Part shown: in pieces, positions 5,801 through 49,700 of the stretch
Layout: every line of letters starts with the position of its first letter
Position numbering within the stretch: position 1 is the stretch's first letter
Assembly (NCBI GenBank): GCA_964016885.1
Contig: OZ024745.1
Location: 48,918,001 to 48,982,000, forward strand
Length of the DNA: 64,000 nucleotides
Direction: 5' to 3'
Origin: Eledone cirrhosa
Lineage: Eukaryota
Program-made: the position numbers and the translations under genes
The notes under the pieces: model-generated
The model's input: the letters and a program-made list of their open reading frames with translations, nothing else
What the model was told of the DNA's origin: nothing
Database searches by the model: none

Positions 5801-8800
5801 GCTTGAGTACTGACTTGGTCTGTTATACCCATCCAACCCTTGCTGGCAGGGTAAGAAGTTGTTAAATGATGATGATGTTTGGCACAAATAATGTACATTC
5901 CATTCAATAACTGTTTTTTTACAGAACAGGAATTACAAGCTAAAATGTATTTTACATTCAATAATTATTTTGACAGAACAAAGACTGCAAGCTAAAATCA
6001 AAGAGATGGAACACCAACTTAACAACTTAAAGGTATTGTATGGTATGCTTAACTCTTAACATCCTGTAATAATTTAGCAGAAAATACCTGAAAAGGGTTT
6101 GTTAATTCAAATATTTATAGTATGTTTACTAGTTGACTGATTGTTGTGAAAATTTCTAATATGATGCAATCATGGTGATGTTTTGTACATTTTAAGTATA
6201 TCTTGCTCATGAGGTTCCACGTGGTACAGGATGTTAAGAGTTAATTCTTACTTTAAAATTTAATATTGACATTTTATATGGGCAAGGGGCTTCACATTTA
6301 CAGTAAATGAGAGGGAGTTAATTGGATTTAAACTCAGAATATAAAGGGATGAAACTATATACTTTAAAGATTGACACTTTACAATTCATTGTCTACCGCA
6401 AGAAAAGTAACATAATCACAAAGCTTCTTATATAGTTTATATATTACTAGTGGACCTCTGCTGTCCATAATGATGGCAATAGCATTGAATGTATTTAATT
6501 TTTTGAGTTTGGAATTGGTATGTCATGTATATCAGGATTACCAGATATATGAACAATTATACAAACTGGGAAAATTGCATTCTGATAAATTAATTGTTTG
6601 AATAAGAGAAACCTTATAGTTTATGTTACTGACATATGGAAATGATTAAAGATAAGAATTATATTTTAATAATTTATTTCTTGCATATAATTACATAAAT
6701 GTTAAACATATATGTACAAATGACATACAAGATTAAATGTAAGAATAACTTTGAAAATATCACTATTAACAGGGATATATGTAAGGTTATATGGAGAATG
6801 TGATTGGAAATTGAACTTCTTATTGTAGCAACATGCATTATGTGTGAGTGCATACATTTTAAAGGGTTACAGATGGAGATAAATATAAATATACAAACAC
6901 GCATGATGTATTATTATGGTTTATTTTCTTTATTTTCCTTTCTTTCAGAGATCGGATAGTGATGGAGATTATACATCTTCCAGTACCAAATACTTGCAGG
7001 AAGAGATAAACCATTTGAATAACCAAATTCATCATTTAACTGAAGAAAATATGGAACTTCAAAGAGATCTAGATGATGAAAAGAGAGCTAGTGAAAGGGT
7101 ACAATTGATATGTTCATTGTGCATGTGTGTTTGTGTGTACATGATGGCTACACATGGTTACCTTTTTGTCTCCATGTAAATGACAATAATTTTCACTTGA
7201 AAGGACGTCTTCAGAAACTTCTGTTGGTGTTGTCCTCAATATTAGTGAAAACTGAAAATTGTAGTGCAAAAATGTTTTGACTAAACACAAGTTCTTTGCC
7301 TAAAACAACTTACTCTACTTTTCTGGGTCTAGAATCTTCAAATGAAAGAATCTTTTCTCTTATTTTATCAGTGTGGAAAAGTTATTTACAGCCACTCGTG
7401 GAAGAGAGACAGTAGAAGTAGTACAGAAACAAACACTGATAAATGAATAAATAAATACATACATACATGGCACACACACATACGCATATGTACATACATG
7501 CATACATGGCGTACACACACACACATACGTACATACATACACGCCTTGTCTAATGGGAAAGCCAGATGAATTTGTTCATTCCTCCCAAGTATTTCATTTT
7601 TCCAGTGTGCAATATATATACATATATATATGATATTCTTTTTTTGTTACTTTCAGTATAATTCCCAAATTATTGACCTTGACAGAGAAAAGGCTATTCT
7701 AAGACAAGAAGTAAGCAAACAATTTCTTTCCATAATGAATTAAAATTCTTTTTCTGTAATATTCTATTACACTAAAATTATGATTATCAAACTCTCTATG
7801 AGGTTTACACTGCCACTTTTACATCTTCAGTAGCAGAAATATTGCCCTCAATGTGGTTTTCTGCTGCCTTTCCAGTCTGACCAAGGACATGGGGCAATCT
7901 ATTGATATAATAAGGTAGTTTGGGTCCACCCTGTAAGGTGGTAATGTTGGTGCCATACTGAAAAGCACCCAGCCCACCTTGTAAGGTGGTAGTATGGGTG
8001 CCGTGCTGAAAACTCAGTCCACCCCGAAAAGTAGTAGTTCCAGAGACAATAAAGTGCTCCCAGTAAATGTTGTAAAGTGGTTGGCTTTAGGAAGGGCATC
8101 AAACCATAGAAACTAAACCAAAATGGAGCATATGAGTAGGACATTACCATATAACTGGTCTGGCATCAGCATGTGATAACCTGTCTAACCCATGCAAACA
8201 TGGAAAACACATTAAATGGTGATGATGATGATATCATCATCATCATCATCAACGTTTAACGTCCGTGTTCCACGCTTGCATGGGTTTGGACGGGGGTAGT
8301 CCCACTTGAGGCAAGAGTGATTGTCTTGCTCGCATAGGACTGTCTGGCAGGTTTTCTACAGTTGGATGCCCTTCCTAACACCAACCACATTTACAGTGTG
8401 GGTCTGGGAGGTTTTTACCGTGTTGCCTACACGGCCACATTACAGCGTGGACTGTGTGTTTTTTTGTCGTGACACCTACACGATCTCATTTGTTTCGGCC
8501 CGGATGGCGCGGCACCAACATAACTTTACATAGGACGGGGTGGTGTGGATGGGGTGGGGGTGGTGGTGGTGGGACGGGGTGTATTTTGTTAGAGATGCCT
8601 ACTGGCAAGGCGGGTCTTCTCTGTTACTGAGTACCGCCAAAGGTCTCGGTCCAGTGACATTGTCTTGGAGAGGTGTAAGTGTGTGAGGTCGGAGTTTATC
8701 AGCTCGTCCCAGGTTTTTCTAGGTCTGCCTATTCCGTGGCTACCGTCTATCTTTATTGCCCTGCACTTTGTTATACAGCTATCGACTTTCATGCGCATCA

Positions 8801-11343
8801 CGTGTCCATACCAACGTAGCCTTCTCTCGAGTAAACAACATCTGATCCCTCTTATCTCTAATTTTTTCCTTAGTTCGTTTATGCTTTGCCGTTCACGTAT
8901 ATTACTGTTACACATCCAGCGGAGCATGCAAGCTTCGTTCCTCTCTAGTCTGCGTATATCCTCTGCACACAATGCCCAGGTCTCACTGCCATGCAACATT
9001 GCTGTTCGTATGCAGGCATCGTACAACCTGCCTTTCATTTTTAGGGAGAACCCTTTAGCAGCTAATAGTGGTATAAGCTCTCTGAACTTTTTCCAACCAG
9101 TTCTGACTCTAGCTACAGTACTTTCAGAGCACCCTCCCCCACTGCTGATTTTATTGCCCAGGTAACGGAAGCTGTCCACTATTTCTATAGAACCCTCTGC
9201 GCAATTGAAAGAGCTAGTATTGTGTGGGCACTTGCTGCTACTTATTGCCCCAGAACACCGGCCACATGTAAAATCTATGTTCTTAGTTAGCTTACCTGTG
9301 ATCCCACTACATCTTTTATGCACCCATACTTTGCATTTAGGACACAAAATGGAGTTTCTACCTACGCCTTTCCTACACACCGAGCACGACCATTTCCCAG
9401 AAGGGACCGCCGCCTTGTTTTCTTTCCTACAAACTAGAACTTTGGTCTTAGCCAGGTTAATTTTAAGTCCTTTTGACTCTAGGCCGTGCTTCCATGTTTG
9501 GAATTTCTTCTCTAGCTCGGCCATTGATTCCGCTATGAGTGTCAGGTCGTCTGCGTATAGGAGTTCCCATGGGCAGCCTGTCTTGAACTCCTCTGTTATA
9601 GCCTGAAGGGCAATAATAAATAGTAGGGGGCTGAGAACAGAGCCCTGATGGACGCCAACTTTTACGCTAAACTCTTCACTATATTCGTTGTTAATTCTAA
9701 CCTTGCTGACTGTTTCTTTATACATGGCTTGTATAGCCCTCACAAGCCATTCGTCAACGCCTAGTTTTCTAAGAGCCCACCAGATAATGGAGCGGGGGAC
9801 TCTGTCGAAGGCTTTCTCCAAGTCGACAAAAGCTAAGTAGAGGGGTTTACCTTTAGCTAGGTACTTCTCCTGTAGTTGTCGTACTATGAAAAGAGCGTCT
9901 GTGGTACTTTTGCCTGACACAAACCCGAACTGCATTTCATCTAGGTCAATTCTCTCTCTGATTAGTTGCGCTATTACTTTTTCTGTGACCTTCATGACCT
10001 GGTCGATTAATTTAATGCCTCTATAGTTACTCCTATCTAGGGCGTCTCCTTTACCCTTATAACAGTTAACGATGATGCTGCTATGCCAGTCCTTCGGAAC
10101 AACCCCATTCTGTACGACTTGGTTAACTATGCGGGTGACCATGGTGTGTCCCACCGTGCCAGATGCCTTCAGCATCTCAGCAACTATTTCCGAAGGCCCA
10201 GCCGCCTTACCTGTCTTCATATCCTTGATTGCCTTACTTATTATACTCCCCTCGACTAACACTGCTGGTCCCTCTATTGGGTCGACATGGGGGAGACTGT
10301 CTTTCTCCCATTTATTCTCCTCATTTAGTAGCCTTTCATAGTGACACTTCCAAGCTGCCTTCTTATCAGTGTCGGTGATGGCAAGTATGCCATCATCGTT
10401 AAGTACACACTTCTCCCCGACAATATCACGGTTTTCCTTGACGCATTGCCTAGCAATCCTGAACACCTCACGTTTTTGGTCATCGCGTTGTAGGACATGC
10501 TTGAACTTTCTTTCCTCAGCTTCCCTTCTTGCTAAGTACACTTCTCTCCTAGCTTCCCTCCTGGCCACTTGATAGTCTACTCTACTTCCCCCATCCCGCC
10601 ATACTTTCCAAGCCTGCTTTTTGGCCTTAATTGACTCCTCCACCTTACTGTTCCACCACCATGTTACTCTCCTCCTGCCTACAGGCCTGCTCCAGCCACA
10701 GACTTCGTCTGTGGCCAACAGCAGGTTTGCTTTCAGAAATTCCCACTGTCCCTCTATATTGTCCGACTCTAAGTGTTCTTCCTTACTGTCGAAAGCATCA
10801 AGTAATATGTTTTGAAATTTATTTTTGGCTGTGGGGTCCTTTAGCTTCCATATTTTTCTCCTGAGGATAGTCCTCTTCTGCTGTCGAGTACGTCTCGACC
10901 TGACTATGAGGTCGCTAATTATCAGTCTATGTTGGGAGGTGCATTCTTCATGGGGGAGGGATTTAGTGTTTACAACAGACACTCTGTCACGTCTTCTGGT
11001 AAGGATATAATCTACCTGGCTTGTGTGTTCCCCGGATCTATAGGTGATCAGGTGATTGTCACGTTTTTTGAAGTTAGTGTTACAGATAGTTAGGTTATTT
11101 GCATCACAGAATTCCAGGATTCTGGAGCCTTCCTCATTTCTAGTACCAAACCCATAGCCTCCATGGATTTCGTCGTAGCCGTCACAATGTTGCCCAACGT
11201 GACCATTTAGGTCGCCTGCAATAATTATATAGTCACTGTCAGATATTTGGGAGGTAGTGAGCATCAGTGTCTCATAGAATCTGTCTTTTATATATATATA
11301 TATATATATAGCGTGGAAGAACGGACGTAAAATGGTGATGATG

Positions 11344-11374
<31 letters not shown>

Positions 11375-19712: not shown

Positions 19713-22700
19713 ATTTTCAGGCATAAGGTGTTTGATTTGGCAAAGTTGTGAGAGTGTTGGGTAGTTTGTTTCAGGTCTCTATGTTCTGTGTTCAAATCTG
19801 ACCAAGGTCTACTTTGCCTTTCATGATTGATAAAGACAGTATCAGTCTAGTGCTGGTGCAGTCATTTCTCCTTCTATCTGTCGTATCCTGGATGTTCTAC
19901 TGGATTAAAGAAGGGCAGGTTGAGAGGGTGCCTATATGAGCTTGTAAAACCCTTAGTGAAAGCATGGTTCATACTATCGGCTCTACACATGACAATGCTT
20001 TGGGATCGTTAGCTTAGGATGACCTCGGCCTTGTTGAGCAAAAAGAAGATGGTACATGCTACCAAGTCAACCTTGATTGCCAGTGATGGCTGTAGTAGAT
20101 TTCTTGGCAGAGAAAATGCTGTTTTTCTCCCAAAATAAGTCTGGAGAATTTACACTGCCGCTTAGAAGTTGAATGTTACATTAGTCATAGGCCTCTCAAA
20201 ATGTCCTTCATACAGGGAAATACAATATCGTTTATACTTTGAAATATAATTTTTAGCTATTAAATATTTATATAGTTTTAATAATAGAGTAGCTGGCTTC
20301 TATGTACATGTTATGTATTTAAATTAAAGGATGAATTTATTGTGGTCTAGATACCATAATTTTTTAGTATGTTAAACCAGTAAAGTTTATTCAGATGTTT
20401 AGTTGAAGTGAAAAAGTTAGTTAAAGCTAGTTAATAATATCTTGAACTCGAAATATATACACGTAGAATAATATAGTATCTAAAGTTAAGGTATTTTCGC
20501 AAATATTTCTTTGCAGTTGTGGAAAATAAAAACCACAATTAAGGATTTGTTTGACACTCATGATTTTTACAACCTTTTTTTGATCATATTGATTATTATT
20601 AATATTAATCTATCTGTTTGAGTACTATATTATAATAATTATATAATGGGCAAGTCATTTTTAGCCATTCAAAAACACATAAATATTGTTAGATTCATGT
20701 TTCATTTATTTTGTGGCATCAAATTTTTTTTTCACTCTTTGTCACCTCGTCACTGACACAACGTTTTTTGCAACAGTTGTAGATTTTCTGTGGTTTTGTG
20801 AATGGCTAAAATGACTTGCTTATGATATAATTGCTTCATTTCCAACACATGTTGTCAAACAAGCACAACTTGGAAATCAAATCGAAATATACCCATGAGA
20901 AGACTGCCATGTTTATGATTATGATTTCTATCTATTTTTCAGCTTGCTGATTTGATGGAGAAGTTACAAGTAAAATCAGAATCTGATGATTCTGTCATGC
21001 TAGCAGTAAATGAAAAAGTGAATGACTGGAAGGTATATAAATATTTATTGTTTTTTAAAACTAGCATTTTAAGGTCCTGCTAAAGCAAGGATCAGCCATG
21101 TGACCAGTGTGACACCAAAAAATCATTTGTTTTGTTAAGTTATAGTAATGTAAGCATTATTGATAATAATCTGGTGAATTTTGTTGTTTTACAGAAAATC
21201 CTTGCTGAAAAAGACCAAGACATTGCTAGTTATCAAGGAGATATCATGAATCTTCGTAAAAAGCTGGAAGTTGTAAATTTAGATGCTGACCGTTCCTCAT
21301 TAATTACCCTAACAAGTGTAAGTTGTATACATTAACTTTTAACATCCTGTACCACATAAACCACGTTATAGTATAGATTAACTTTCAACATCCTGTACCA
21401 CATCAAACCACATTATAGTATAGATTAACTCTCAACATCCTGTACCACATCAAACCACATTGTAGTATACATTAACTCTCAACATCCTGTACCACATCAA
21501 ACCACATTGTAGTATACATTAACTCTCAACATCCTGTACCACATCAAACCACATTGTAGTATACATTAACTCTCAACATCCTGTACCACATCAAACCACA
21601 TAGTATACATTAACTCTCAACATCCTGTACCACATCAAACCACATTATAGTATAGATTAACTCTCAACATCCTGTACCACATCAAACCACATTATAGTAT
21701 ACATTAACTCTCAACATCCTGTACCACATCAAACCACGTTATAGTATAGATTAACTTTCAACATCCTGTACCACATCAAACCACATTATAGTATAGATTA
21801 ACTCTCAACATCCTGTACCACATCAAACCACATTGTAGTATACATTAACTCTCAACATCCTGTACCACATCAAACCACATTATAGTATACATTAACTCTC
21901 AACATCCTGTACCACATCAAACCACATTGTAGTATACATTAACTCTCAACATCCTGTACCACATCAAACCACATTATAGTATCCATTAACTCTCAACATC
22001 CTGTACCACATCAAACCACATTATAGTATACATTAACTCTCAACATCCTGTACCACATCAAACCACATTATAGTATACATTAACTCTCAACATCCTGTAC
22101 CACATCAAACCACACTATAGTATACATTAACTCTCAACATCCTGTACCACATCAAACCACATTGTAGTATACATTAACTTTCAACATCCTGTACCACATC
22201 AAACCACATTATAGTATACATTAACTCTCAACATCCTGTACCACATCAAACCACATTATAGTATACATTAACTCTCAACATCCTGTACCACATCAAACCA
22301 CATTATAGTATCCATTAACTCTCAACATCCTGTACCACATCAAACCACATTATAGTATACATTAACTTTCAACATCCTGTATCACATCAAACCACATTAT
22401 AGTATACATTAACTCTCAACATCCTGTACCACATCAAACCACATTATAGTATAGATTAACTCTCAACATCCTGTACCACATCAAACCACACTATAGTATA
22501 CATTAACTCTCAACATCCTGTACCACATCAAACCACATTGTAGTATACATTAACTCTCAACATCCTGTACCACTTCAAACCACATTATGGCATCCATTAA
22601 CTCTCAACATCCTGTACCACATCAAACCACATTGTAGTATAGATTAACTCTCAACATCCTGTACCACATCAAACCACATTGTAGTATACATTAACTCTCA

Positions 22701-25700
22701 ACATCCTGTACCACATCAAACCACATTATAGTGTACATTAACTCTCAACATCCTGTACCACATCAAACCACATTATAGTATAGATTAACTTTCAACATCC
22801 TGTACCACATCAAACCACATGATAGTATCCATTAACTCTCAACATCCTGTACCACATCAAACCACATTGTAGTATACATTAACTCTCAACATCCTGTACC
22901 ACATCAAACCACATTATAGTATAGATTAACTTTCAACATCCTGTATCACATCAAACCACATTATAGTATACATTAACTCTCAACATCCTGTACCACATCA
23001 AACCACATTATAGTATAGATTAACTCTCAACATCCTGTACCACATCAAACCACATTATAGTATACATTAACTTTCAACATCCTGTACCACATCAAACCAC
23101 ATTATAGTATAGATTAACTCTCAACATCCTATACCACGTCAAACCACATTGTAGTATACATTAACTCTCAACATCCTGTACCACATCAAACCACATTATA
23201 GTATACATTAACTCTCAACATCCTGTACCACATCAAACCACATTATAGTATACATTAACTCTCAACATCCTGTACCACATCAAACCACATTATAGTATAC
23301 ATTAACTCTCAACATCCTTTACCACATCAAACCACATTATAGTATACATTAACTCTCAACATCCTGTACCACATCAAACCACATTATAGTATACATTAAC
23401 TCTCAACATCCTGTACCACATCAAACCACATTATAGTATACATTAACTCTCAACATCCTGTACCACATCAAACCACATTGTAGTATACATTAACTCTCAA
23501 CATCCTGTACCACATCAAACCACATTATAGTATACATTAACTCTCAACATCCTGTACCACATCAAACCACATTATAGTATAGATTAACTCTCAACATCCT
23601 GTACCACATCAAACCACATTATAGTATCCATTAACTCTCAACATTCTGTACCATATCAAACCACATTATAGTATAGATTAACTTTCAACATCCTGTACCA
23701 CATCAAACCACATTATAGTATCCATTAACTCTCAACATGCTGTACCATATCAAACCACATTATAGTATACATTAACTCTCAACATCCTGTACCACATCAA
23801 ACCACATGATAGTATCCATTAACTCTCAACATCCTATACCACATCAAACCACATTGTAGTATACATTAACTCTCAACATCCTGTACCACATCAAACCACA
23901 TTATAGTATAGATTAACTTTCAACATCCTGTACCACATCAAACCACATTATAGTATAGATTAACTCTCAACATCCTGTACCACATCAAACCACATTGTAG
24001 TATACATTAACTCTCAACATCCTGTACCACATCAAACCACATTATAGTATAGATTAACTTTCAACATCCTGTACCATATCAAACCACATTATAGTATACA
24101 TTAACTCTCAACATCCTGTACCACATCAAACCACATGATAGTATACATTAACTCTCAACATCCTGTACCACATCAAACCACATTGTAGTATACATTAACT
24201 CTCAACATCCTGTACCACATCAAACCACATTATAGTATAGATTAACTTTCAACATCCTGTACCACATCAAACCACATCATAGTATCCATTAACTCTCAAC
24301 ATCCTGTACCACATCAAACCACATTATAGTATCCATTAACTCTCAACATGCTGTACCACATCAAACCACATTATAGTATACATTAACTCTCAACATGCTG
24401 TACCACATCAAACCACATTATAGTATACATTAACTTTCAACATCCTGTACCACATCAAACCACATTATAGTATAGATTAACTTTCAACATCCTGTACCAC
24501 ATCAAACCACATTATAGTATACATTAACTCTCAACATCCTGTACCACATCAAACCACATTATAGTATACATTAACTCTCAACATCCTGTACCACATCAAA
24601 CCACATTATAGTATAGATTAACTCTCAACATGCTGTACCACATCAAACCACATTATAGTATACATTAACTCTCAACATCCTGTACCACATCAAACCACAT
24701 TATAGTATAGATTAACTCTCAACATCCTGTACCACATCAAACCACATTATAGTATCCATTAACTCTCAACATCCTGTACCACATTATACTATAGATTAAC
24801 TTTCAACATCCTGTACCATATCAAACCACATTATAGTATACATTAACTCTCAACATCCTGTACCACATCAAACAACATTGTAGTATACATTAACTCTCAA
24901 CATCCTGTACCACATCAAACCACATTATAGTATACATTAACTCTCAACATCCTGTACCACATCAAACCACATTATAGTATAGATTAACTCTCAACATCCT
25001 GTACCACATCAAACCACATTATAGTATACATTAACTCTCAACATCCTGTACCACATCAAACCACGTTATAGTATAGATTAACTTTCAACATCCTGTACCA
25101 CATCAAACCACATTATAGTATACATTAACTCTCAACATCCTGTACCACATCAAACCACATTATAGTATACATTAACTCTCAACTTCCTGTACCACATCAA
25201 ACCACATTATAGTATCCATTAACTCTCAACATCATGTACCACATCAAACCACATTATAGTATACATTAACTTTCAACATCCTGTATCACATCAAACCACA
25301 TTATAGTATACATTAACTCTCAACATCCTGTACCACATCAAACCACATTGTAGTATACATTAACTCTCAACATCCTGTACCACATCAAACCACATTATAG
25401 TATAGATTAACTCTCAACATCCTGTACCACATCAAACCACACTATAGTATACATTAACTCTCAACATCCTGTACCACATCAAACCACATTGTAGTATACA
25501 TTAACTCTCAACATCCTGTACCACATCAAACCACATTATAGTATCCATTAACTCTCAACATCCTGTACCACATCAAACCACATTATAGCATCCATTAACT
25601 CTCAACATCCTGTACCACATTAAACCACATTGTAGTATACATTAACTCTCAACATCCTGTACCACATCAAACCACATTATAGTGTACATTAACTCTCAAC

Positions 25701-28700
25701 ATCCTGTACCACATCAAACCACATTATAGTATAGATTAACTTTCAACATCCTGTACCACATCAAACCACATGATAGTATCCATTAACTCTCAACATCCTG
25801 TACCACATCAAACCACATTGTAGTATACATTAACTCTCAACATCCTGTACCACATCAAACCACATTATAGTATAGATTAACTTTCAACATCCTGTACCAC
25901 ATCAAACCACATTATAGTATAGATTAACTCTCAACATCCTATACCACATCAAACCACATTGTAGTATACATTAACTCTCAACATCCTGTACCACATCAAA
26001 CCACATTATAGTATACATTAACTCTCAACATCCTGTACCACATCAAACCACATTATAGTATAGATTAACTCTCAACATCCTGTACCACATCAAACCACAT
26101 TATAGTATCCATTAACTCTCAACATTCTGTACCACATCAAACCACATTATAGTATAGATTAACTTTCAACATCCTGAACCACATCAAACCACATTATCGT
26201 ATCCATTAACTCTCAACATGCTGTACCATATCAAACCACATTATAGTATACATTAACTCTCAACATCCTGTACCACATCAAACCACATGATAGTATCCAT
26301 TAACTCTCAACATCCTGTACCACATCAAACCACATTGTAGTATACATTAACTCTCAACATCCTGTACCACATCAAACCACATTATAGTATAGATTAACTT
26401 TCAACATCCTGTACCACATCAAACCACATTATAGTATACATTAACTCTCAACATCCTGTACCACATCAAACCACATTATAGTATAGATTAACTCTCAACA
26501 TGCTGTACCACATCAAACCACATTATAGTATACATTAACTCTCAACATCCTGTACCACATCAAACCACATTATAGTATAGATTAACTCTCAACATCCTGT
26601 ACCACATCAAACCACATTATAGTATCCATTAACTCTCAACATCCTGTACCACATCAAACCACATTATAGTATAGATTAACTTTCAACATCCTGTACCATA
26701 TCAAACCACATTATAGTATACATTAACTCTCAACATCCTGTACCACATCAAACCACATTGTAGTATACATTAACTCTCAACATCCTGTACCACATCAAAC
26801 CACATTATAGTATACATTAACTCTCAACATCCTGTACCACATCAAACCACATTATAGTATAGATTAACTCTCAACATCCTGTACCACATCAAACCACATT
26901 ATAGTATACATTAACTCTCAACATCCTGTACCACATCAAACCACGTTATAGTATAGATTAACTTTCAACATCCTGTACCACATCAAACCACATTATAGTA
27001 TACATTAACTCTCAACATCCTGTACCACATCAAACCACATTATAGTATAGATTAACTCTCAACATGCTGTACCACATCAAACCACATTATAGTATACATT
27101 AACTCTCAACATCCTGTACCACATCAAACCACATTATAGTATAGATTAACTCTCAACATCCTGTACCACATCAAACCACATTATAGTATCCATTAACTCT
27201 CAACATCCTGTACCACATCAAACCACATTATAGTATAGATTAACTTTCAACATCCTGTACCATATCAAACCACATTATAGTATACATTAACTCTCAACAT
27301 CCTGTACCACATCAAACCACATTGTAGTATACATTAACTCTCAACATCCTGTACCACATCAAACCACATTATAGTATACATTAACTCTCAACATCCTGTA
27401 CCACATCAAACCACATTATAGTATAGATTAACTCTCAACATCCTGTACCACATCAAACCACATTATAGTATACATTAACTCTCAACATCCTGTACCACAT
27501 CAAACCACGTTATAGTATAGATTAACTTTCAACATCCTGTACCACATCAAACCACATTATAGTATACATTAACTCTCAACATCCTGTACCACATCAAACC
27601 ACATTATAGTATACATTAACTCTCAACATCCTGTACCACATCAAACCACATTATAGTATCCATTAACTCTCAACATCATGTACCACATCAAACCACATTA
27701 TAGTATACATTAACTTTCAACATCCTGTATCACATCAAACCACATTATAGTATACATTAACTCTCAACATCCTGTACCACATCAAACCACATTATAGTAT
27801 AGATTAACTTTCAACATCCTGTACCACATCAAACCACATTATAGTATAGATTAACTCTCAACATCCTATACCACATCAAACCACATTGTAGTATATATTA
27901 ACTCTCAACATCCTGTACCACATCAAACCACATTATAGTATACATTAACTCTCAACATCCTGTACCACATCAAACCACATTATAGTATAGATTAACTCTC
28001 AACATCCTGTACCACATCAAACCACATTATAGTATCCATTAACTCTCAACATTCTGTACCACATCAAACCACATTATAGTATAGATTAACTTTCAACATC
28101 CTGAACCACATCAAACCACATTATAGTATCCATTAACTCTCAACATGCTGTACCATATCAAACCACATTATAGTATACATTAACTCTCAACATCCTGTAC
28201 CACATCAAACCACATGATAGTATCCATTAACTCTCAACATCCTGTACCACATCAAACCACATTGTAGTATACATTAACTCTCAACATCCTGTACCACATC
28301 AAACCACATTATAGTATAGATTAACTCTCAACATGCTGTACCACATCAAACCACATTATAGTATACATTAACTCTCAACATCCTGTACCACATCAAACCA
28401 CATTATAGTATAGATTAACTCTCAACATCCTGTACCACATCAAACCACATTATAGTATCCATTAACTCTCAACATCCTGTACCACATCAAACCACATTAT
28501 AGTATAGATTAACTTTCAACATCCTGTACCATATCAAACCACATTATAGTATACATTAACTCTCAACATCCTGTACCACATCAAACCACATTATAGTATA
28601 GATTAACTTTCAACATCCTGTACCATATCAAACCACATTATAGTATACATTAACTCTCAACATCCTGTACCACATCAAACCACATTATAGTATAGATTAA

Positions 28701-31700
28701 CTCTCAACATGCTGTACCACATCAAACCACATTATAGTATACATTAACTCTCAACATCCTGTACCACATCAAACCACATTATAGTATAGATTAACTCTCA
28801 ACATCCTGTACCACATCAAACCACATTATAGTATCCATTAACTCTCAACATCCTGTACCACATCAAACCACATTATAGTATAGATTAACTTTCAACATCC
28901 TGTACCATATCAAACCACATTATAGTATACATTAACTCTCAACATCCTGTACCACATCTAACCACATGATAGTATCCATTAACTCTCAACATCCTGTACC
29001 ACATCAAACCACATTGTAGTATACATTAACTCTCAACATCCTGTACCATATCAAACCACATTATAGTATACATTAACTCTCAACATCCTGTACCACATCA
29101 AACCACATTATAGTATAGATTAACTTTCAACATCCTCTACCACATCAAACCACATTATAGTATACATTAACTCTCAACATCCTGTACCACATCAAACCAC
29201 ATTATAGTATACATTAACTCTCAACATTTCAAATTACGTCCCTTACATCGGTTCGTTATTCTATACGTTTACCCAGTTTGTATCACAGAACCAGAGGTGG
29301 TTTCAGATTGTTTGGTATCAAAAGGGTTACTCAAAGATTGTTAAGGTTAGAATATGCTAGAAGTACGATAATTCATGTGTAATAATGTATGTGTGTGTGT
29401 GGGGGATTTTTTCCGCCAAAATCTGTTATTACACATGAATTTGTTAATTTCTTACTTCAGGTGATAGAAGAACGAGATCAGCAAATTTATGAGTTGACCG
29501 AGGAGATAAAGAATTTGACAGATGAAATGGATTCAAATGCAGCCCTTATTGAAGATTTGAAAAATGATTTGACCAAGAGTAAGCTAATATTAGAATAATT
29601 GATGTTTAAATGTTTGGCTTTCATCATCATTATCGTACATCTATTTTTCCATACTGGCATGTGTTGAATGGGACCCACACAGTCGTGTCATTTATTACAA
29701 CCCTCTATTGCCCAGCATACACTGCAACAGAAAAAAACCCAGTCATCTTTGTTGTGTATGTCATCATCATCATCATCATCATTGTCATTGTCATCATTTT
29801 TATGCCCATTTTTCCATGCTGCCATTTGTTGGATGAGCTTTTTGAGGCAGAATATTATGGCTCAATGCCTTTCCTGACACCAACCTTCATATGATTTTTT
29901 TAAGTAATGTATGGTGTCTTTGTGTATGTAACCACTGAGCTTCAGGACATTTGTTTATTCAAGACACATACCACACATACCACACTGAGATAGAATTGAA
30001 AACCACATGGTTATGAAGGAAACTCATGAGTCTAAAGTCTGTGAGGCTGGTGCTTATGTTTGTTGAATGGCGTAAAGCGACCGAGAGTACAATACTTCTC
30101 CCTGGACAGGGTGCCAGTCCATCGCAGGGTTAAACCCCTAGCTATAGCTGGTACTCATTTTCAGCTGAGTACACTGGAGCAATGGGAAATGAAATGTTTT
30201 GCTCAAGAACACAGCATGCAACACAGCCCAAGAATCGATCCCACATCATGATCGTAAGTCCAACACCCTTACCCATGCCTCCATGTACATCATGTTTATT
30301 ATGTAATAATACATGAGATACTGCAATGTATCTTTATTATATATTTGTCACCTATTATGTATTCTAATATAAACAAACTATCTGTATAATGTTTTCCAAT
30401 AATTTACTCAATTTTTTGTCCTTGCAGAACCAAAGGATCATATGTTTACAAAAGTGAGAGAACAGAAAAAGGCTTTGTCACAAACGAATAAGCTTTTAAA
30501 AGATGCTGAAAAATTAACCAAACAGGTTTGTTAGATTTGAATATATATTTTCATGTGGATATAACTTAAGATATTATTCTCATTCTATCTATCTGTTTAT
30601 GCCAATTGCCAAGTCACCCATATGTCCTTATATGTGTCCTTCAAACTTCTCATCAGTGTTTTCCTACACTATCCACACTGGTGTCTTCTAGCAGGTTATC
30701 AATGTAATTTTTTTCCTTTCTACTCCTGTTTGTTTATCCATCTGATGGTTCCCACAGAACAGAACAAGATCACTTGCTATCTTCTCATGGTGACGAACAC
30801 AGAGACATGCAAGTTGTCTGTGATAAATATTCATTTAACATCTCAGTTCTTCCTTGATTTATTGTTATGCAAGCAATAATTTACAACTAAATTATGATAA
30901 TTTTTCACATAGGTTTAATTAATTCTTCTCATTATTCATTTATTATTAATTGCTTAATTAGCTTTCTTGAAATATTTCCAGCCTATACATTTACATACAT
31001 TCAGTAAAGGATTCTCATTTAATTCTCTTTGTTTTAATTGCCACCATTATGATTTAACCCTTTAGCATTTACATTAGTCTATATATACTATTATATTTTC
31101 AGAGTAAAGGCTTTATCTCATAATTATCTCACATAATATAAAATCTATGAGATTTTTATATTATTTATTTTGAGAACAATACCTAAACATTAATATGAGT
31201 GACCGGTTATGCCGGTTTGAACAGAAAAAGGTGAGAGAATTCTGGCTGGATACTGCCGGTTTCAATGCTAAAGGGTTAATGGAAAGAGAGCCTATCATGT
31301 AGTTTTATAGTTTTGCACTTTAACTAACCCATCTGCCATAAATATCATGATTTTATTTCAGTTTAATCTTAGTTGTAAGTTACTTTTATACCTATTTAAA
31401 AACTACAATATATATTTACTCACTGTAAATGTGGTTGGTGTTAGGAAGGGCATCCAGCTGTAGAAACCAGATCAAAATCTGTTCTGTATGAGCAAGACAT
31501 GGTGACCTGACCTGGCCTATCTCACAACAGGACAACTCATCTAACCCATGCTAGTATGGGAAAATGGATGTTAAAAGGTGATGATGATGATAGTGAATTG
31601 GCAGTCATTAGAATGTTGGATAGAATGTGTTGCAGTATTTGTTCTGGCTCATTGTGCTCTCTGTGTTCAACTCTCATCTAGGTTAAGGTTGATAAAAAAA

Positions 31701-34700
31701 TACCAATCCAGTAGAGTGGGTGGTTGGGTGGGGGATTTTTCCTCTGTACCTCTCTCTCTCTCGAAGAAATTGCCTATGTTCAAATCTGAAGAGGGATGGA
31801 CTCTGCCAGGTTTAAGATGATGGTGTCCTTACAACTTCATGAGCAGTATATATTTTTTACTCAAGACAAGCTGGGTCATAGAGCAGATTGTGTCTCATTA
31901 AATGAATAAAGAAATACCTCACCTATATATAAAGCTAGTTCATTTTAGGAGATATTTCATTTTATTAAAGTTAGATTTAATAAAGCCAATACATGCTTTT
32001 AAAAGAAGTGTCTTCTTCCCTAGGCTGAACATGATGCACTTGAAAAAGACAAACATCTGGTAGAGGCCTTAGAAAGGATGAGTCAATATGAATCTGTGAG
32101 TACTTGATTTTTGCAAATATATATATTTTAAAGTAAATATCTTTGACATCTTATCTATATTGTTTGATGTATTATATTATTATATCATGATATTTATTTT
32201 TATATTTAAATGGTTGTGGTTTTCAATCTTTCAGGGAGAGTATGGGCTTGCTGAGGCTGTTAATGAAATCAAAGAATTGAAACATAAGTTGACGATTAAT
32301 CAAAGGTTGATAAATTTTAAAAATCAGTTTGAATTATTTAACAACAGAATTGTTTTTTCCATAGGTTCATTTCTATATTGTATGTTTCATTTCTGTATTG
32401 GTCTTCTAAATTCATTTTATTTAGAATACATTTCTCTTTTTTGGTTTTTGTTCTTACATTCTAATTATTGTAACTTACATAGCTAGAGAGGACAGGGTCT
32501 GCTCCAGGTGGCACAAACTACACTACCGAAGCTATATTATAACTGTACAACCTTTATGTCCTTTTATTTCATATTGCTCGAATCCTCCAGTCAGCAGAAA
32601 AATGAGTACCAACAGCCATCAACCATTGTGACAGATTGGTGTCCCATCTTGTACTCTGTCACTTAACAGTATGTGAAACTGGAATAAGCTCTGGCTTGAT
32701 GAGTCTCTAGGCTCAAGAAAAATTAACTTAACTTTATTTATAGATCAATAAATACAAAAGAAGCCTTTGGAAAGTTTAGCTCTATTATAATGTTTAGAAC
32801 TTCATTAAATTTTCCTTTTATTTTGATTTAAAGAAAAAAAATATAAGCTTTTAAAAAATATTTTACTATTCTTTATGGATTAATGCATTTTTTTTAGGGA
32901 CATTGAAGAATTTGTGCAGCATATTAACAGAAATGAAGAAACTCTCAGGGAATTAACAATAGAAAATGAATTATTGAGGACAAAACTAGGCATGGACCCG
33001 AAAAAATCATTAAATATAAAGGATTATCAAACTGATATTACTGTAAAAAAAGAAGAACAACGTGCATTGAATATAGTTCTCCAGAAAGAGGTTAGTTAAC
33101 TCTTTTGTTATCATATTTCTAATGCAATTACCGCCTATGATTTCCAATTAACTTTTTTAATAACCAAACTCTTTTCATGATTAAGTTAGTGTTTAGTAGA
33201 TAATTAGAAAACGTTTTTACAAATCATTATAATGGAAAGTTTATATATATATATACAGTCCAAACATCCAATCTCGCAAAATCCGAAATCTGTATTTTTT
33301 GTTATCTATTTAAGGTTTAAATACGGTGTTTTTGTCGTATTGAACAGAACAAATCTTGCAGTTTTGCTTTTTGTTAAATCGCTTGTTAAACATTCATAAC
33401 CTTCCAGCTAGCTACCCCACACCCCTCCCACCCGCCCCCACACACCACCATTCTTAATACGTGGACCAATCATAAGCCAGAGCCCCCCCCCCACGCATCA
33501 CCATTATTATTATAAGCCAGACCCCCCCCACGCATCACCATTATTATTATTACGCGGACCAATCATAAGCCAGAGGCCTATACTATCGCTTGCCCGGTTG
33601 CCTTCGATATATGATGGATGGACGGATGGACGGACGGACTGCGGAATCCTGGAGAGTGGAAGGGAGAGAAAAATCTGGACGCTCAGAGCGAAAATGCCAA
33701 AGTTAAAGTCAAATTCACCTCGTGGACGAGAATGCGAGCACTCCTCTTTGTTTCGTCCGCGGATGGCTAACATAACCCTATCTCCCCCCGCCCCCCACCA
33801 CCCCCACCCTCCAAACGCAACCCAAAACTTCAGAGTTGGTACCATAAATGTAGGCACCCTAAAGGGTCGCGCTAACGAGGTTGTAGAAATGCTTGAACGT
33901 AAGGAGGTCGATGTTTGCTGTATTCAAGAGACCAGGTGGAGGGGTGGGTCTGCTAGATTCATTGAGGGTAAAAAACGATGTTATAAGCTTTTCTGGGTGG
34001 GAAACGACGATGGGCTGGGTGGAGTAGGAATCATGGTAGCAGAAAAGTGGGCAGATAAGATAATAGACGTAAATAGAGTGAACGACAGAATAATTAAAAT
34101 ACGACTTGTCCTCAATAGAACTACGGTGACAGTAATATCTGTGTACGCACCCCAATCCGGACTGCCCGGCACTATAAAAGACAGATTCTATGAGACACTG
34201 TTGCTAACTACCTCCCAAATATCTGACAGTGACTATATAATTATTGCAGGCGACCTAAATGGTCACGTTGGACAACATTGTGACGGCTACGACGAAATCC
34301 ATGGAGGCTATGGGTTTGGTACTAGAAATGAGGAAGGCTCCAGAATCCTGGAATTCTGTGATGCAAATAACCTAACTATCTGTAACATTAACTTCAAAAA
34401 ACGTGACAATCACCTGATCACCTATAGATCCGGGGAACACACAAGCCAGGTAGATTATATCCTTACCAGAAAACGTGACAGAGTGTCTGTTGTAAACACT
34501 AAATCCCTCCCCCATGAAGAATGCACCTCCCAACATAGACTGATAATTAGCGACCTCATAGTCAGGACGAGACGTACTCGACAGCAGAAGAGGACTATCC
34601 TCAGGAGGAAAATATGGAAACTAAAGGACCCCACAGCCAGAAATAAATTTCAAAGCATATTACTTGATGCTTTCGACAGTAAGGAAGAGCATCTAGAATC

Positions 34701-37700
34701 GGACAATATAGAGGGACAGTGGGAATTTCTGAAAGCAAACCTGCTGTTGGCGACAGACGAAGTCTGTGGCTGGAGCAGGCCTGTAGGCAGGAGGAGAGTA
34801 ACATGGTGGTGGAACAGTAGGGTGGAGGGGTCAATTAAGGCCAAAAAGCAGGCTTGGAAAGTATGGCGGGATGGGGGAAGTAGAGTAGACTATCAAGTGG
34901 CCAGGAGGGAAGCTAGGAGAGAAGTGTACTTAGCAAGAAGGGAAGCTGAGGAAAGAAAGTTCAAGCATGTTCTACAACGCGATGACCAAAAACGTGAGGT
35001 GTTCAGGATTGCTAGGCAATGCGTCAAGGAAAACCGTGATATTGTCGGGGAGAAGTGTGTACTTAACGATGATGGCATACTTGCCATCACCGACACTGAT
35101 AAGAAGGTAGCTTGGAAGTGTCACTATGAAAGGCTACTAAATGAGGAGAATAAATGGGAGAAAGACAGTCTCCCCCATATCGACCCAATAGAGGGACCAG
35201 CAGTGTTAGTCGAGGGGAGTATAATAAGTAAGGCAATCAAGGATATGAAGACGGGTAAGGCGGCTGGGCCTTCGGAAATAGTTGCTGAGATGCTGAAGGC
35301 ATCTGGCACGGTGGGACACACCATGGTCACCCGCATAGTTAACCAAGTCGTACAGAATGGGGTTGTTCCGAAGGACTGGCATAGCAGCATCATCGTTAAC
35401 TGTTATAAGGGTAAAGGAGACGCCCTAGATAGGAGTAACTATAGAGGCATTAAATTAATCGACCAGGTCATGAAGGTCACGGAAAAAGTAATAGCGCAAC
35501 TAATCAGAGAGAGAATTGACCTAGATGAAATGCAGTTCGGGTTTGTGTCAGGCAAAAGCACCACAGACGCTCTTTTCATAGTACGACAACTACAGGAGAA
35601 GTACCTAGCTAAAGGTAAACCCCTCTACTTAGCTTTTGTCGACCTGGAGAAAGCCTTCGACAGAGTCCCCCGCTCCATTATCTGGTGGGCTCTTAGAAAA
35701 CTAGGCGTTGACGAATGGCTTGTGAGGGCTATACAAGCCATGTATAAAGAAACAGTCAGCAAAGTTAGAATTAACAACGAATATAGTGAAGAGTTTAGCG
35801 TAAAAGTTGGCGTCCATCAGGGCTCTGTTCTCAGCCCCCTACTATTTATTATTGCCCTTCAGGCTATAACAGAGGAGTTCAAGACAGGCTGCCCATGGGA
35901 ACTCCTATACGCAGACGACCTGACACTCATAGCGGAATCAATGGCCGAGCTAGAGAAGAAATTCCAAACATGGAAGCACGGCCTAGAGTCAAAAGGACTT
36001 AAAATTAACCTGGCTAAGACCAAAGTTCTAGTTTGTAGGAAAGAAAACAAGGCGGCGGTCCCTTCTGGGAAATGGTTGTGCTTGGTGTGTAGGAAAGGCG
36101 TAGGTAGAAACTCCATTTTATGTCCTAAATGCAAAGTATGGGTGCATAAAAGATGTAGTGGGATCACAGGTAAGCTAACTAAGAACATAGATTTTACATG
36201 TGGCCGGTGTTCTGGTGCAATAAGTAGCAGCAAGTGCCCACAAAATACTAGCTCTTTCAATTGCGCAGAGGGTTCTATAGAAATAGTGGACAGCTTCCGT
36301 TACCTGGGCGATAAAATCAGCAGTGGGGGAGGGTGCTGTGAAAGTACTGTAGCTAGAGTCAGAACTGGTTGGAAAAAGTTCAGAGAGCTTATACCACTAT
36401 TAGCTGCTAAAGGGTTCTCCCTAAAAATGAAAGGCAGGTTGTACGATGCCTGCATACGAACAGCAATGTTGCATGGTAGTGAGACCTGGGCATTGTGTGC
36501 AGAGGATATATGCAGACTAGAGAGGAACGAAGCTTGCATGCTCCGCTGGATGTGTAACAGTAATATACGTGAACGGCAAAGCATAAACGAACTAAGGAAA
36601 AAATTAGAGATAAGAGGGATCAGATGTTGTTTACTCGAGAGAAGGCTGCGTTGGTATGGACACGTGATGCGCATGAAAGTCGATAGCTGTATAACAAAGT
36701 GCAGGGCAATAAAGATAGACGGTAGCCACGAAATAGGCAGACCTAGAAAAACCTGGGATGAGCTGATAAACTCCGACCTCACACACTTACACCTCTCCAA
36801 GACAATGTCACTGGACCGAGACCTTTGGCGGTACTCAGTAACAGAGAAGACCCGCCTTGCCAGTAGGCATCTCTAACAAAATACCCCCCCACCCCATCCA
36901 CACCACCCCGTTCTATGTAAAGTTATGTTGGTGCCGCGCCATCCAGGCCGAAACAAATGAGATCGTGTAGGTGTCACGACAAAAAAACACACAGTCCACG
37001 CTGTAATGTGGCCGTGTAGGCAACACGGTAAAAACCTCCCAGACCCACACTGTAAATGTGGTTGGTGTTAGGAAGGGCATCCAACTGTAGAAAACCTGCC
37101 AGACAGTCCTATGCGAGCAAGACAATCACTCTTGCCTCAAGTGGGACTACCCCCGTCCAAACCCATGCAAGCATGGAACACGGACGTTAAACGTTGATGA
37201 TGATATAACATTATACACACATATATATTTGTATTCACATACTCATACATATTCATGTATAAATGAATACATGCACACAAACATATACATATTCATGTAT
37301 AAACAAATACACATACACTAAGATGCATCCATATATATTGATATATAAACAAATTCATATACCCACACTCAATTACTTGCTAAAATATTATTCAGATTGA
37401 ACGACTTGAAGAAGAGCGGATTTTATTGAAGCAAAACTTAAGGAAATTTGCTCAACAGACTGGACGTAGGTATGAAAACTTTCATAATTTAATTAACTTC
37501 AAAAATTTACACTGCTTTGTGAAGGCATGTGACTTGATGACATATTTGATGGATTATGTGTGTCAAGTGAGAAAAAGATGATATTGGACCACTTTCCAGA
37601 TGTGAAATGTTTACCATCAGAATTTGCCGGTAAAATTTTATATACTGTTTAGTATGACTTGGTAGTATTTACCATGATATTTTGCTTAGGGCTTTAGGTG

Positions 37701-46700: not shown

Positions 46701-49700
46701 AGTGTCGAACACCATGCTTTGTGGCATAGAGTTACAACCTTTTATGTTCTGATTCTAAATCCTGCTGAGGTTAGCTTTGCCTTTCATTCTTAAGGGGGTT
46801 GATAAAATAAAATACCAGTAACGCACTGGGTTCAATTTAATTGACTTTCCCCTCTCCCAAAATTGTTGGTCTTGTGCTTAATATATATATGCTTACAGTA
46901 AATATATTGATTAATTGAGGTTGCGTATGCAGCACATCTATCAGTGAATAATGATGCAATTTGATTTAAGCACTCAACTTTATGTATTTTCTTCTAAATG
47001 TGATTTGTCAGTCAGTGATGGAGTATATGTAGAATAAGGAAAATGCAAAGTTTGGTATAGATGTTTAAAAATCCTTTATTAACAAAGCTGTGATACATAT
47101 TCAATGGCGATTGTGGTTATGTGATTGTTCAATCATACAACCAGTCACGTGATATCATCAGACAGCATATTATGTAATAAAGTTACGTTTCTGAGGCAAT
47201 CCAATTTAAAGACAAGGGAATGGACAGAAATCATGTTTTCATAACTGAAGTCCATTCCCTTGTGAACTTTAATCCTGCTCCACAGTTTTGTGCAGACATG
47301 GAGATGAAGGACTGACTAACCATCCATCTGCCATCCCTTCCCTGCATCAGTCAGGTCCACAGAGACATGCCTGACTCACATACCAAGCCTCACCCTCCAC
47401 AGCTGGTGAGATACTATAGTCACAGAGTTCAATTTAGTCTAAGATGTTTTTGTTTACTGTTAGGCTCTTGTCCAGCAGATGTCAGCACCAATATATCAAA
47501 AATCCTGAACACATGTCAACACGTTGACTGCAAAATCTTATATCAACGACAAGTGAATTATTATTCACCCCTCCCCCCCAACATAAGTGGATAGACAAAA
47601 TAATGCTTGTGTCTAGAAATTAGAATTCTACATTGCAAATTAGAAAAATTAAAGTTTCAGAATTCACATTTAAAAATAAATAAATAGGAAAATAAAATAA
47701 ATAAGAAGATGTATAAATTATTATTAGAAATTAGAGTTCAACATTGAACATTAAATATTTTGAACTAACGATTAACAATTGAAAGTTATGAGTTAAAAAA
47801 TCATCAATATTTTATGTCCACTTTTAAGTAATGTTCTATAAAATGAAGTCCACGAGAGATAGGTAAAAATTGGATATTCCTGTGCCAGGAACAGGAAGTC
47901 ATTCCTCCTGCATAAACAACAGAGTCCCAAAGTATATGGATGTTCTTGTAAAAATTCTGAGTAATGCCTGCTGGATGAACAATGAAACACTCCAGCAATA
48001 ATATATGAAGCTGAGGTCTCTCTATTGAATCAACACCACTAAAAGGAATCCTGGAAATATATCGGTATGTCAGAGAGCTGGTTTAAAAATTGCTTCCTTA
48101 ATCACAAAATGACCTTCAGATACCCAACTAAAATAAACTCTTAAATTTGGTAAATAGAATATGGCAATTCAAAGACAAGAATATAGACTTCTCCATCAAA
48201 TGGAAGATACTAGAAAAATCTCAACCATATATAAATGGGCTCAAGGCTTGCAGATTATGGGTTGATGAGAAATGGTAGATATTGAATAATTCCCACAAAC
48301 CACTTAACACATACAGAGTTCTCCTTACGATGTTCTCACCTCTTTAATATTGATTTACATCTTTCTTAGTCTATCAATTTTTTCTATGTTTATGTCTACT
48401 ACATTTATAGAAACTATAGGTATGCCATATGGTGATACCAAGTTTGAAATCCTAGGGGGTGTCCTTCAAGGTGATACATTTGCACGATAGTACAAGTCAA
48501 CAGGTTATAATTCACTTCGTTTAATCATATTTGCTGTTTTATACATTTTGGTGATAATCGTTATGCAACAGTTATGACCTCATCAGACAGCTAGAAATTG
48601 AACAGAAAAAACAAAAACAAAGAAGAAATAAAGCTTATTTTTGTTGTTTCCATTCATTGATATGCTCCAGGTTGATATTTGGTGTTCTTACCAGTGTTTT
48701 GAGAGAGCAACACCAAATATCAGCCTGGAGCATATCAATGAACCGATGTTCTGTAACTTGAAATAAATATTTGTAAACACCTCAAATATATGAATCATAT
48801 ATTAATGATGTCTAAGATTTCTCTCACTCTGGAATTTGATGTGAGATTTAGTGCCTTTCACTTTCATATTGATTATTTTTATTTGAGAATAAAGTAATAT
48901 AGCTTCTCAAATTCTTGTCTTAACTCAAGAAATGGCTTAAAGTAGGCACATACCTTTGCAACATGAAGCTGTAGATATGACAATGCTTCACAGTTACACA
49001 TTGGTGTTTTATTGTAACTTATACTTGTTCAGAGCCTTAACATGAGTAGACCTTGATGTGAAATGAGAAAGGAAGTGAAGTGATGAAGCTTTTCATGCTT
49101 TTCAATCAGAGTACTTTGGAAACGTTTCAGAACAGTCAGAGCCTTCCACCTCACATTTGGCCTCATTAACTGATTCGCTCTGTCTAAAGCAATGCTGATG
49201 TTTTCAAATTCGTTTCCATCAATTTCAACTTCTTGAATTTTGATTTCAATTTCGCTACCCATTTTCAAATGAGAAATGAAAATAACTTTTACTGAGCTGT
49301 TATAAAATAACTTACTCTGAGCTTTTATAAAATATCTTACACTGAGCTGTTATAAAATATCTTACTCTGAGCTGTTATAAAATAACTTACTCTGAACTGT
49401 TATAAAATAACTTACTCTGAACTGTTATAAAATATCTTACTCTGAACTGTTATAAAATAACTTACTCTGAGCTGTTATAAAATAACTTAATCTGAGCTGT
49501 TATAAAATATCTTACTCTGAGCTGTTATAATATAACTTACACTGAGCTGTTATAAAATAACCTACCCTGAGCTGTTATAATATAACTTACACTGAGCTGT
49601 TATAAAATATCTTACTCTGAGCTGTTATAATATAACTTACACTGAGCTGTTATAAAATATCTTACACTGAGCAGTTATAAAATATCTTACTCTGAACTGT

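What the first reader, a model, noticed from the sequence alone, without database searches (positions are those of the whole stretch)
33256..37204. Intact full-length RTE LINE with a PHD finger inserted inside the reverse transcriptase
Seen: a stop-free 1060-aa ORF carries C-x2-C-x10-C-x2-C-x4-H-x2-C-x14-C-x2-C (36079-36210) between the RT motifs GLKINLAKTK and FRYLG, that is, within the RT rather than in ORF1 or at the C-terminus. A ~98% identical sister copy lies 22 kb upstream, so the family is young. Known: C4HC3 is the PHD pattern, PHDs often read histone H3 tails, and PHDs in LINEs are mostly described in ORF1 of CR1/L2-type elements. I recall expressed octopus RTEs and zinc-finger-bearing invertebrate RTEs being reported, so this may not be new. 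Inference: this could be a competent element with a chromatin-reader module coupled to the polymerase.
Basis: partly seen in the sequence, partly recalled or inferred. Interest (0 to 1): 0.72.

Follow-up and report, generated by a model that had tools for sequence, protein, structure and literature searches.

The report
PHD finger inside RTE reverse transcriptase
A widespread branch of RTE jumping genes, very abundant in this genome, carries a conserved, strongly positively charged PHD zinc finger inside its reverse transcriptase, in the loop that R2 elements use to touch target DNA, so it likely helps grip DNA at the insertion site; this particular copy is clipped at its front end and is probably not an active one.

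Summary
The finger is real: a 1060-aa APE-RT frame carries a Pfam-level C4HC3 PHD between RT motifs 6 and 7. It is a lineage trait, not an oddity of this copy. It occurs in 120 of 120 best relatives, forms one RT branch, and is under RT-level purifying selection between subfamilies (dN/dS 0.047). It adds about 63 aa to the loop where R2Bm's 6a insertion reads target DNA. It keeps the methyl-lysine Trp but is basic (+10) and lacks the Asp after Cys3 seen in 7 of 7 host PHDs, so I favour nucleic-acid gripping over histone reading; neither is shown. 'Intact full-length' is overstated: the copy starts inside a tandem-monomer 5' UTR and has eight private or minor amino-acid changes, one at an endonuclease position that is Thr/Ser in 82 of 82 relatives. 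Young copies sit at (TA)n tracts. CpG-poor flanks are shared with a CR1-like LINE, so they do not show PHD targeting. Databases already flag the domain, I found no paper describing it, and this scan noted it 11 times before on other DNA.

The parts
33257..37204 (+). RTE-clade LINE copy, clipped inside its 5' UTR, complete ORF and 3' tail
33242..33255 (.). (TA)n tract at the 5' junction; such a tract lies at 23 of 40 defined 5' junctions of the family
33257..33693 (+). Remnant of the 5' UTR; starts part-way into a roughly 520-580 bp unit that is tandemly repeated in longer copies
33694..36876 (+). Single ORF, 1060 aa: APE endonuclease, RT, PHD insert, thumb and wrist; no L1-type C-terminal domain
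33820..34566 (+). APE-type endonuclease (aa 43-291); N52, E79, Y151, D187, N189, D254 and H281 present; private change T232I at a Thr/Ser column
35431..36033 (+). RT core, Pfam RVT_1, with YADD at 35908-35919 and motif 6 at 35995-36024
36079..36210 (+). C4HC3 PHD finger (aa 796-839) within an insert of about 63 aa between RT motifs 6 and 7
36295..36309 (+). RT motif 7 (FRYLG), where the RT fold resumes
36877..37195 (+). 3' UTR
37196..37204 (+). (GAT)3 tail; 4-10 units in other copies
8242..11292 (-). Sister copy, 98% identical, 5'-truncated at residue 161, finger intact

Best explanation
This is one copy of a large RTE-clade LINE lineage whose single protein carries a conserved, selected, strongly basic PHD finger inserted between RT motifs 6 and 7, and the finger likely works as a zinc-stabilised grip on target DNA (free or nucleosomal) during target-primed reverse transcription. 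Shown: position, fold, conservation, purifying selection, charge, and that the site matches the R2Bm 6a loop by alignment. Inferred: the loop faces upstream target DNA as it does in R2Bm; basic residues around the His and Cys1-Cys2 contact the backbone; this steadies the enzyme at a nick, which for the young family usually lies in or beside a (TA)n tract, while the (GAU)n RNA end pairs with an AT at the nick. Inferred from the tree: one ancient gain with later losses. The window copy itself is a clipped insertion decaying neutrally in an intron.
For: Insert site: motif 6 to motif 7 spacing is 92-101 aa in 13 and 30-41 aa in 9 of the 22 measurable rows of an RT-only search. Residues 644-779 align to R2Bm 523-666, and the R2Bm 6a loop (672-677, between motifs 6 and 7) reads target DNA and is needed for nicking (PMC10499050, passages). 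Charge: aa 791-841 is +10 here, median +8, none at or below zero in 119 rows; 7 complete host PHDs of this genome run from -9 to +6, median -3, and all 7 have Asp after Cys3 against 3% acid in the RTE finger. Basic positions are conserved: 793 84%, 801 76%, 819 81%, 820 89%, 827 70%. Selection: dN/dS 0.047 in the finger (9 synonymous, 2 non-synonymous), 0.043 in the RT core, 0.16 and 0.22 in the linkers, between the young majority and an older subfamily sampled from outside the finger. AlphaFold2 folds it at pLDDT 84-93 between looser linkers (74, 62) without breaking the RT. Junctions: (TA)3 or more at 23 of 40 5' and 20 of 41 3' junctions against 6.1% background.
Against: No binding was measured, and I had no coordinates to dock the finger on DNA. 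The two DNA-binding PHDs in a 2018 review are structurally atypical, while canonical C4HC3 fingers typically bind H3 (PMC6222470, passages). The nearest folds are H3K4me readers (TAF3, Pygopus) and the cage Trp is kept. The R2 paper calls 6a unique to R2, so the shared site is analogy, not homology. Many RTEs lack the finger. The (TA)n bias can come from the endonuclease, from AT pairing with the tail, or from additions by the RT; no finger-less RTE was found in this genome to separate these.
Confidence: 0.42

Rival explanations
1. The finger is a histone H3 tail reader (most likely methyl-K4) that tethers the polymerase to marked chromatin and biases insertion.
For: Canonical C4HC3 spacing; Trp at His-2 in 98% and an aromatic at Cys1-2 in 98% of relatives, the positions occupied by Trp in the TAF3 alignment; the conserved Trp marks methyl-K4 readers (PMC5415848, passages); best Foldseek rows are TAF3 (rmsd 1.9, probability 1.00, E 0.012) and Pygopus; best Atlas cluster is PHD/PHD_Pygo at 0.95.
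Against: Net charge +8 median against a basic peptide; no acid after Cys3; Ser in place of the cage Met. Flank CpG depletion is no stronger than for a CR1-like LINE (medians 0.51 and 0.46 against 0.37; random 0.71), and whole flanks of young copies did not differ from random (0.55 against 0.61, p 0.36).
Confidence: 0.27
2. The finger binds the element's own RNA (3' UTR or template) and helps load or hold it, standing in for the C-terminal zinc domain that this protein lacks.
For: Basic surface; the model aligns with L1 ORF2p only to residue 1064, so the L1 C-terminal domain is absent; there is no ORF1.
Against: Finger-less RTE relatives would have to do without it; the site corresponds to a DNA-facing loop in R2Bm. 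No RNA test was run.
Confidence: 0.16
3. The finger binds a host protein other than histone (a repair, replication or silencing factor) or serves as a structural or dimerisation module.
For: The near-invariant G-V-G-x-N-S-I loop (96-99% at G802, V803, N806, S807) suggests one specific conserved contact rather than general charge.
Against: No partner was identified; the same loop could equally pack against the RT or DNA.
Confidence: 0.15

Closest known systems
RTE-clade non-LTR retrotransposons (single ORF, APE + RT, short-repeat tail)
   Same: One ORF with APE endonuclease and RT, (GAT)n tail, 5'-truncated copies, RT 40-47% identical to finger-less relatives.
   Different: About 63 extra residues holding a C4HC3 finger between RT motifs 6 and 7, and a 5' UTR of tandem units. 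The clade definition is recalled; Repbase and Dfam could not be queried.
Octopus RTE-2_OV and the O. bimaculoides RTE of Petrosino et al. 2022 (PMC9115989)
   Same: RTE clade, about 1.1 kaa single ORF, octopod host (best named hit here is O. bimaculoides, 65% identity over aa 700-920).
   Different: The paper reports a C2H2 finger drawn as a separate domain and a microsatellite making up most of the 3' UTR (section 6); it never mentions a PHD domain.
R2Bm RT insertion 6a (PMC10499050)
   Same: Same loop between motifs 6 and 7; accessory module grafted on the polymerase.
   Different: 6a is a short loop that reads specific bases for a site-specific RLE element; here it is a folded two-zinc domain in an APE element that is not site-specific.
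PHD fingers in ORF1 of CR1 and L2 elements (PMC4120745)
   Same: Same domain family inside a LINE.
   Different: There it lies in ORF1 or ahead of the endonuclease and is shuffled; the paper calls ORF2 highly constrained (passages). Here it lies inside the RT fold.
TAF3 and Pygopus PHD fingers (H3K4me readers)
   Same: Nearest folds; Trp before the His and aromatic before Cys1.
   Different: Opposite net charge, no Asp after Cys3, Ser at the cage Met position.

Membership tests
RTE-clade LINE | Single ORF with N-terminal APE endonuclease and RT | tested here: met
   Pfam Exo_endo_phos and RVT_1; model matches L1 ORF2p at Z 26.9, rmsd 4.0, 586 aligned.
RTE-clade LINE | 3' tail of short tandem repeats, not poly(A) | tested here: met
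   (GAT)3 here, 4-10 units in 39 other copies.
RTE-clade LINE | No C-terminal cysteine-histidine domain | tested here: met
   Protein ends at the position of L1 residue 1064; no Pfam hit after the PHD.
RTE-clade LINE | RT groups with named RTE reference elements | tested here: inconclusive
   Tree built on unnamed relatives only; no named reference set was on hand. The finger-less rows look like fish and plant RTEs from recall.
PHD finger | C4HC3 ligand pattern and Pfam PF00628 above cut-off | tested here: met
   eight ligands invariant in 77 aligned rows.
PHD finger | PHD fold | tested here: met
   Model pLDDT about 90 in the core; listed Foldseek rows are PHD entries with probability up to 1.00, though none reaches E 0.001.
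PHD finger | Binds two zinc ions | not testable with these tools
   Inferred from the ligands only.
H3K4me3-reading PHD (TAF3/BPTF type) | Trp two residues before the His | tested here: met
   W816 in 98% of 120 relatives.
H3K4me3-reading PHD (TAF3/BPTF type) | Second cage residue (Met or aromatic three before Cys3) and acid after Cys3 (roles recalled; residues seen in the TAF3 alignment) | tested here: not met
   Ser in 96%; acid in 3%.
H3K4me3-reading PHD (TAF3/BPTF type) | Binds methylated H3 tail | not testable with these tools
   Needs a binding assay.
Autonomous, competent LINE copy | Complete 5' end with promoter | tested here: not met
   Starts part-way into a UTR unit; longer copies exist. 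Where the promoter lies is not known.
Autonomous, competent LINE copy | Catalytic residues intact and no damaging private change | tested here: inconclusive
   Catalytic residues present, but T232I hits a Thr/Ser column in 82 of 82 relatives.

The most novel reading that the evidence does not exclude
A whole branch of animal LINEs has built a targeting module into the polymerase itself: the PHD in the 6a loop contacts nucleosomal DNA through its basic face and a methyl-lysine through its conserved Trp, steering insertion to (TA)n tracts in chosen chromatin. That would make the motif 6-7 loop a swappable targeting port used independently by R2 and RTE.
Probability: 0.2. Interest if true: 0.8.

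Novelty: new variant of a known kind. Interest (0 to 1): 0.48.

Why it matters
LINE ORF2 proteins are held to be structurally constrained, and their target choice is credited mostly to the endonuclease. A folded, selected domain inside the RT, at the loop that R2 uses for DNA recognition, would show a second route to target engagement and marks a position that tolerates a whole domain, which is of use for retrotransposon-based gene writing. The family is also a major part of this genome (family-related sequence in 7 of 40 random windows, about 5.5% of sampled bases), so any insertion bias shapes it. The single copy in this window is ordinary.

Tried and rejected
Complex prediction of the finger with this genome's H3 residues 1-30 and two zinc ions gave no answer (score 0.04, mark 0.34); it is not used either way. 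Sequencing-run search: no RNA holder listed; no reads were laid. CpG-poor targeting by the finger: rejected as specific, because a CR1-like LINE shows the same or a stronger bias; whether that family has a PHD in an ORF1 was not tested. A finger-less RTE control in this genome: a finger-less query returned finger-bearing families in the 12 loci inspected of 128 matches. The finger-less copy at 57270-57728: a deletion between short repeats in a decayed copy; only 3 other of 40 scored places span the junction, at 82-87% identity, so no amplified finger-less subfamily was seen. C1 or RING identity: weaker Pfam scores than PHD. Chance motif or host-exon capture in this copy alone: rejected. TSD calling was confounded by (TA)n. 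Homologue search with the upstream host exon found nothing at E 0.001. Cluster look-ups gave almost no taxon names. The wide VIA search of the finger model was not run. Literature searches for this architecture found no description; term look-ups in PMC2887409, PMC10294476 and PMC13282606 gave no PHD or zinc. Repbase, Dfam and subscription journals were not searchable, and four of eight listed supplements of PMC9115989 were not searched, so an existing catalogue entry is not excluded.
Full report
Observation. The frame 33412-36876 has no stop and gives 1060 aa from the Met at 33694. The C4HC3 pattern lies at 36079-36210, between motif 6 (GLKINLAKTK) and motif 7 (FRYLG). Pfam gives Exo_endo_phos, RVT_1 and PHD, the last above its cut-off. 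A 98.0% identical copy lies at 8242-11292 on the minus strand and is 5'-truncated at residue 161. The genome is 3.0 Gb; a search with the finger region had 82,861 first-look candidates, and the 150 scored are 98-100% identical. The best named protein hit is from Octopus bimaculoides at 65%.

State of this copy. I fetched 40 of the 150 listed copies, chosen for long open frames. They share no common 5' end: longer copies carry a UTR of tandem units of roughly 520-580 bp, and the window copy starts inside one, with 436 nt of UTR against up to at least 1465. Against 41 other copies it has 8 private or minor non-synonymous changes and 2 private synonymous ones, whereas the states it shares with about half of the copies are 12 synonymous to 1 non-synonymous. 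T232I falls at a column that is Thr or Ser in 82 of 82 relatives. Family-wide, outside the searched region, rare changes are 76 synonymous to 166 non-synonymous and shared ones 39 to 13 (p 1e-8), and CpG transitions are about 4.5 times more frequent than other C/G transitions. So source elements are under selection and this copy is decaying. 23 of the 40 keep one open frame from a Met through the thumb; the sample was chosen for that.

A lineage trait. All 120 listed of 651 homologues have the full pattern 56-58 aa after YADD, but that search included the finger. An RT-only search avoids this bias: among the 22 of 150 rows where the spacing could be measured, motif 6 to motif 7 is 92-101 aa in 13 and 30-41 aa in 9, so the insert is about 63 aa. 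In an RT-core tree of 57 rows that I picked (37 with finger, 18 without, 2 unclear), all finger rows lie on one side of a 98/92 branch together with the 2 unclear and 3 finger-less rows. Holding finger and unclear rows together is not rejected (p-AU 0.384), which does not prove a clade; the root is a midpoint. A second family in this genome, about 67% identical, has the finger too. Named carriers are few: octopus, a catfish and a record labelled as a nematode.

Selection on the finger. Thirty loci of an older subfamily were drawn with DNA downstream of the finger. Their majority against the young majority gives dN/dS 0.047 in the finger (9 synonymous, 2 non-synonymous over 47 codons), 0.043 in the RT core, 0.066 in motif 7 to thumb, and 0.16 and 0.22 in the linkers. 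One of the two changes is loss, in the young family, of a Pro that is invariant in 118 of 118 relatives.

Fold and site. AlphaFold2 on 119 rows gives mean pLDDT 88.9; the finger scores 84-93 between linkers at 74 and 62. The model matches L1 ORF2p up to its residue 1064 (Z 26.9, rmsd 4.0, 586 aligned), so there is no L1-type C-terminal domain. The finger alone matches PHD entries, TAF3 and Pygopus first, though none at E 0.001; the Atlas agrees. Residues 644-779 align with R2Bm 523-666. R2Bm's 6a insertion, between motifs 6 and 7 at 672-677, reads the upstream target motif and is needed for nicking; the authors call it unique to R2 (PMC10499050, passages). The RTE insert starts at the same place. 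I noted this lead before reading earlier scan notes.

Histone or nucleic acid. For histone: Trp at His-2 and an aromatic at Cys1-2 are near invariant, the Trp marks methyl-K4 readers (PMC5415848, passages), and the DNA-binding PHDs in one review are atypical (PMC6222470, passages). Against: aa 791-841 has net charge +10 here and median +8 in 119 rows, none at or below zero. Of 30 top Pfam PHD loci of this genome, 22 gave a complete finger: 15 RTE fingers at +7 to +10 and 7 host fingers at -9 to +6 (L170 moved to host by eye), all 7 with Asp after Cys3, against 3% acid in the RTE finger. The position of TAF3's Met is Ser in 96%. The roles of these pocket residues are recalled. I put target-DNA gripping at 0.42, histone reading at 0.27, RNA binding at 0.16 and other partners at 0.15.

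Insertion sites. (TA)3 or more lies at 23 of 40 defined 5' junctions and 20 of 41 3' junctions, against 6.1% of random positions and 21% of positions that start with AT (one copy had no tail, one no defined 5' end). At 3' junctions the counts are 20 of 39 young, 7 of 29 older, 3 of 30 CR1-like and 2 of 80 random. In L040 a short copy sits in the (TA)n tract of another copy's UTR unit, a tract present uninterrupted in L026 and L042, so at least some tracts pre-exist. Whole flanks of young copies were not CpG-poorer than 40 evenly spaced windows of contig C1 (0.55 against 0.61, p 0.36). With satellite-like rows dropped, 3' flanks were: young 0.51 (21), older 0.46 (23), CR1-like 0.37 (22), random 0.71 (56). 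The CR1-like label is my reading, and a PHD in its ORF1 was not tested.

Context. The element lies in sense orientation in an intron (33091-37395) between two in-phase exons. From recall they resemble CEP290; the only CEP209_CC5 hit of the genome lies 29 kb past the window on the same strand, while a homologue search with the exon found nothing.

Prior knowledge. Petrosino et al. 2022 report an expressed octopus RTE with a C2H2 finger (PMC9115989: passages, section 6, part 1 of supplement 1, term search in four of eight supplements). PHDs of LINEs are described for CR1 and L2 ORF1 (PMC4120745, passages). Seven searches and term look-ups in three papers found no account of a PHD inside an RTE RT; Repbase, Dfam and subscription journals were out of reach. 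Pfam PHD is precomputed on many relatives, and 11 earlier findings of this scan in at least 3 genomes hold the same words.

Verdict. A real, selected, apparently undescribed domain insertion that defines an RTE sub-lineage: a new variant of a known kind. Its function is untested, and the window copy is not special. Interest 0.48.

Noticed in passing
L015, L017, L021, L025, L026, L040 (5' regions); window 33257-33413: The family's 5' UTR is built of tandem units of roughly 520-580 bp, recalling mouse L1 promoter monomers (recall), in two sequence types; no common 5' start was found among 41 copies.
   Followed up: partly
window 32898-33090 and 37396-37469: In-phase exons flanking the element, CEP290-like from recall; the genome's only CEP209_CC5 hit lies 29 kb beyond the window on the same strand.
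   Followed up: partly
window 8187-8242 and 11293-11432; L016, L026, L032, L033: Copies often abut the inverted 3' end of another copy, giving tail-to-tail (GAT)n-AT-(CAT)n junctions.
   Followed up: no
window 57270-57728: Decayed older copy that lost 43 codons of the finger by a deletion between short repeats; not an amplified subfamily.
   Followed up: yes
L127-L138: A second finger-bearing RTE family in this genome, about 67% identical in protein, with open frames near 1024 aa.
   Followed up: partly
window 36076-36078: The young family has Ser where 118 of 118 relatives and the older subfamily have Pro, just before Cys1, yet it amplified recently.
   Followed up: partly
window 12777-14440: CR1-like LINE fragment with an (ATT)n tail and many 93-95% identical copies; used as control.
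   Followed up: partly
window 21325-29227 and 49279-51685: Minisatellite arrays: 47 bp x 168 copies and 25 bp x 96 copies.
   Followed up: no
L024 5' region: A 27-bp piece of the UTR unit expanded into a long tandem array inside one copy.
   Followed up: no
G000:C25:19-24 Mb: Many near-identical 138-bp PHD matches clustered on one contig, longer than the 132-bp RTE finger; possibly another repeat family.
   Followed up: no
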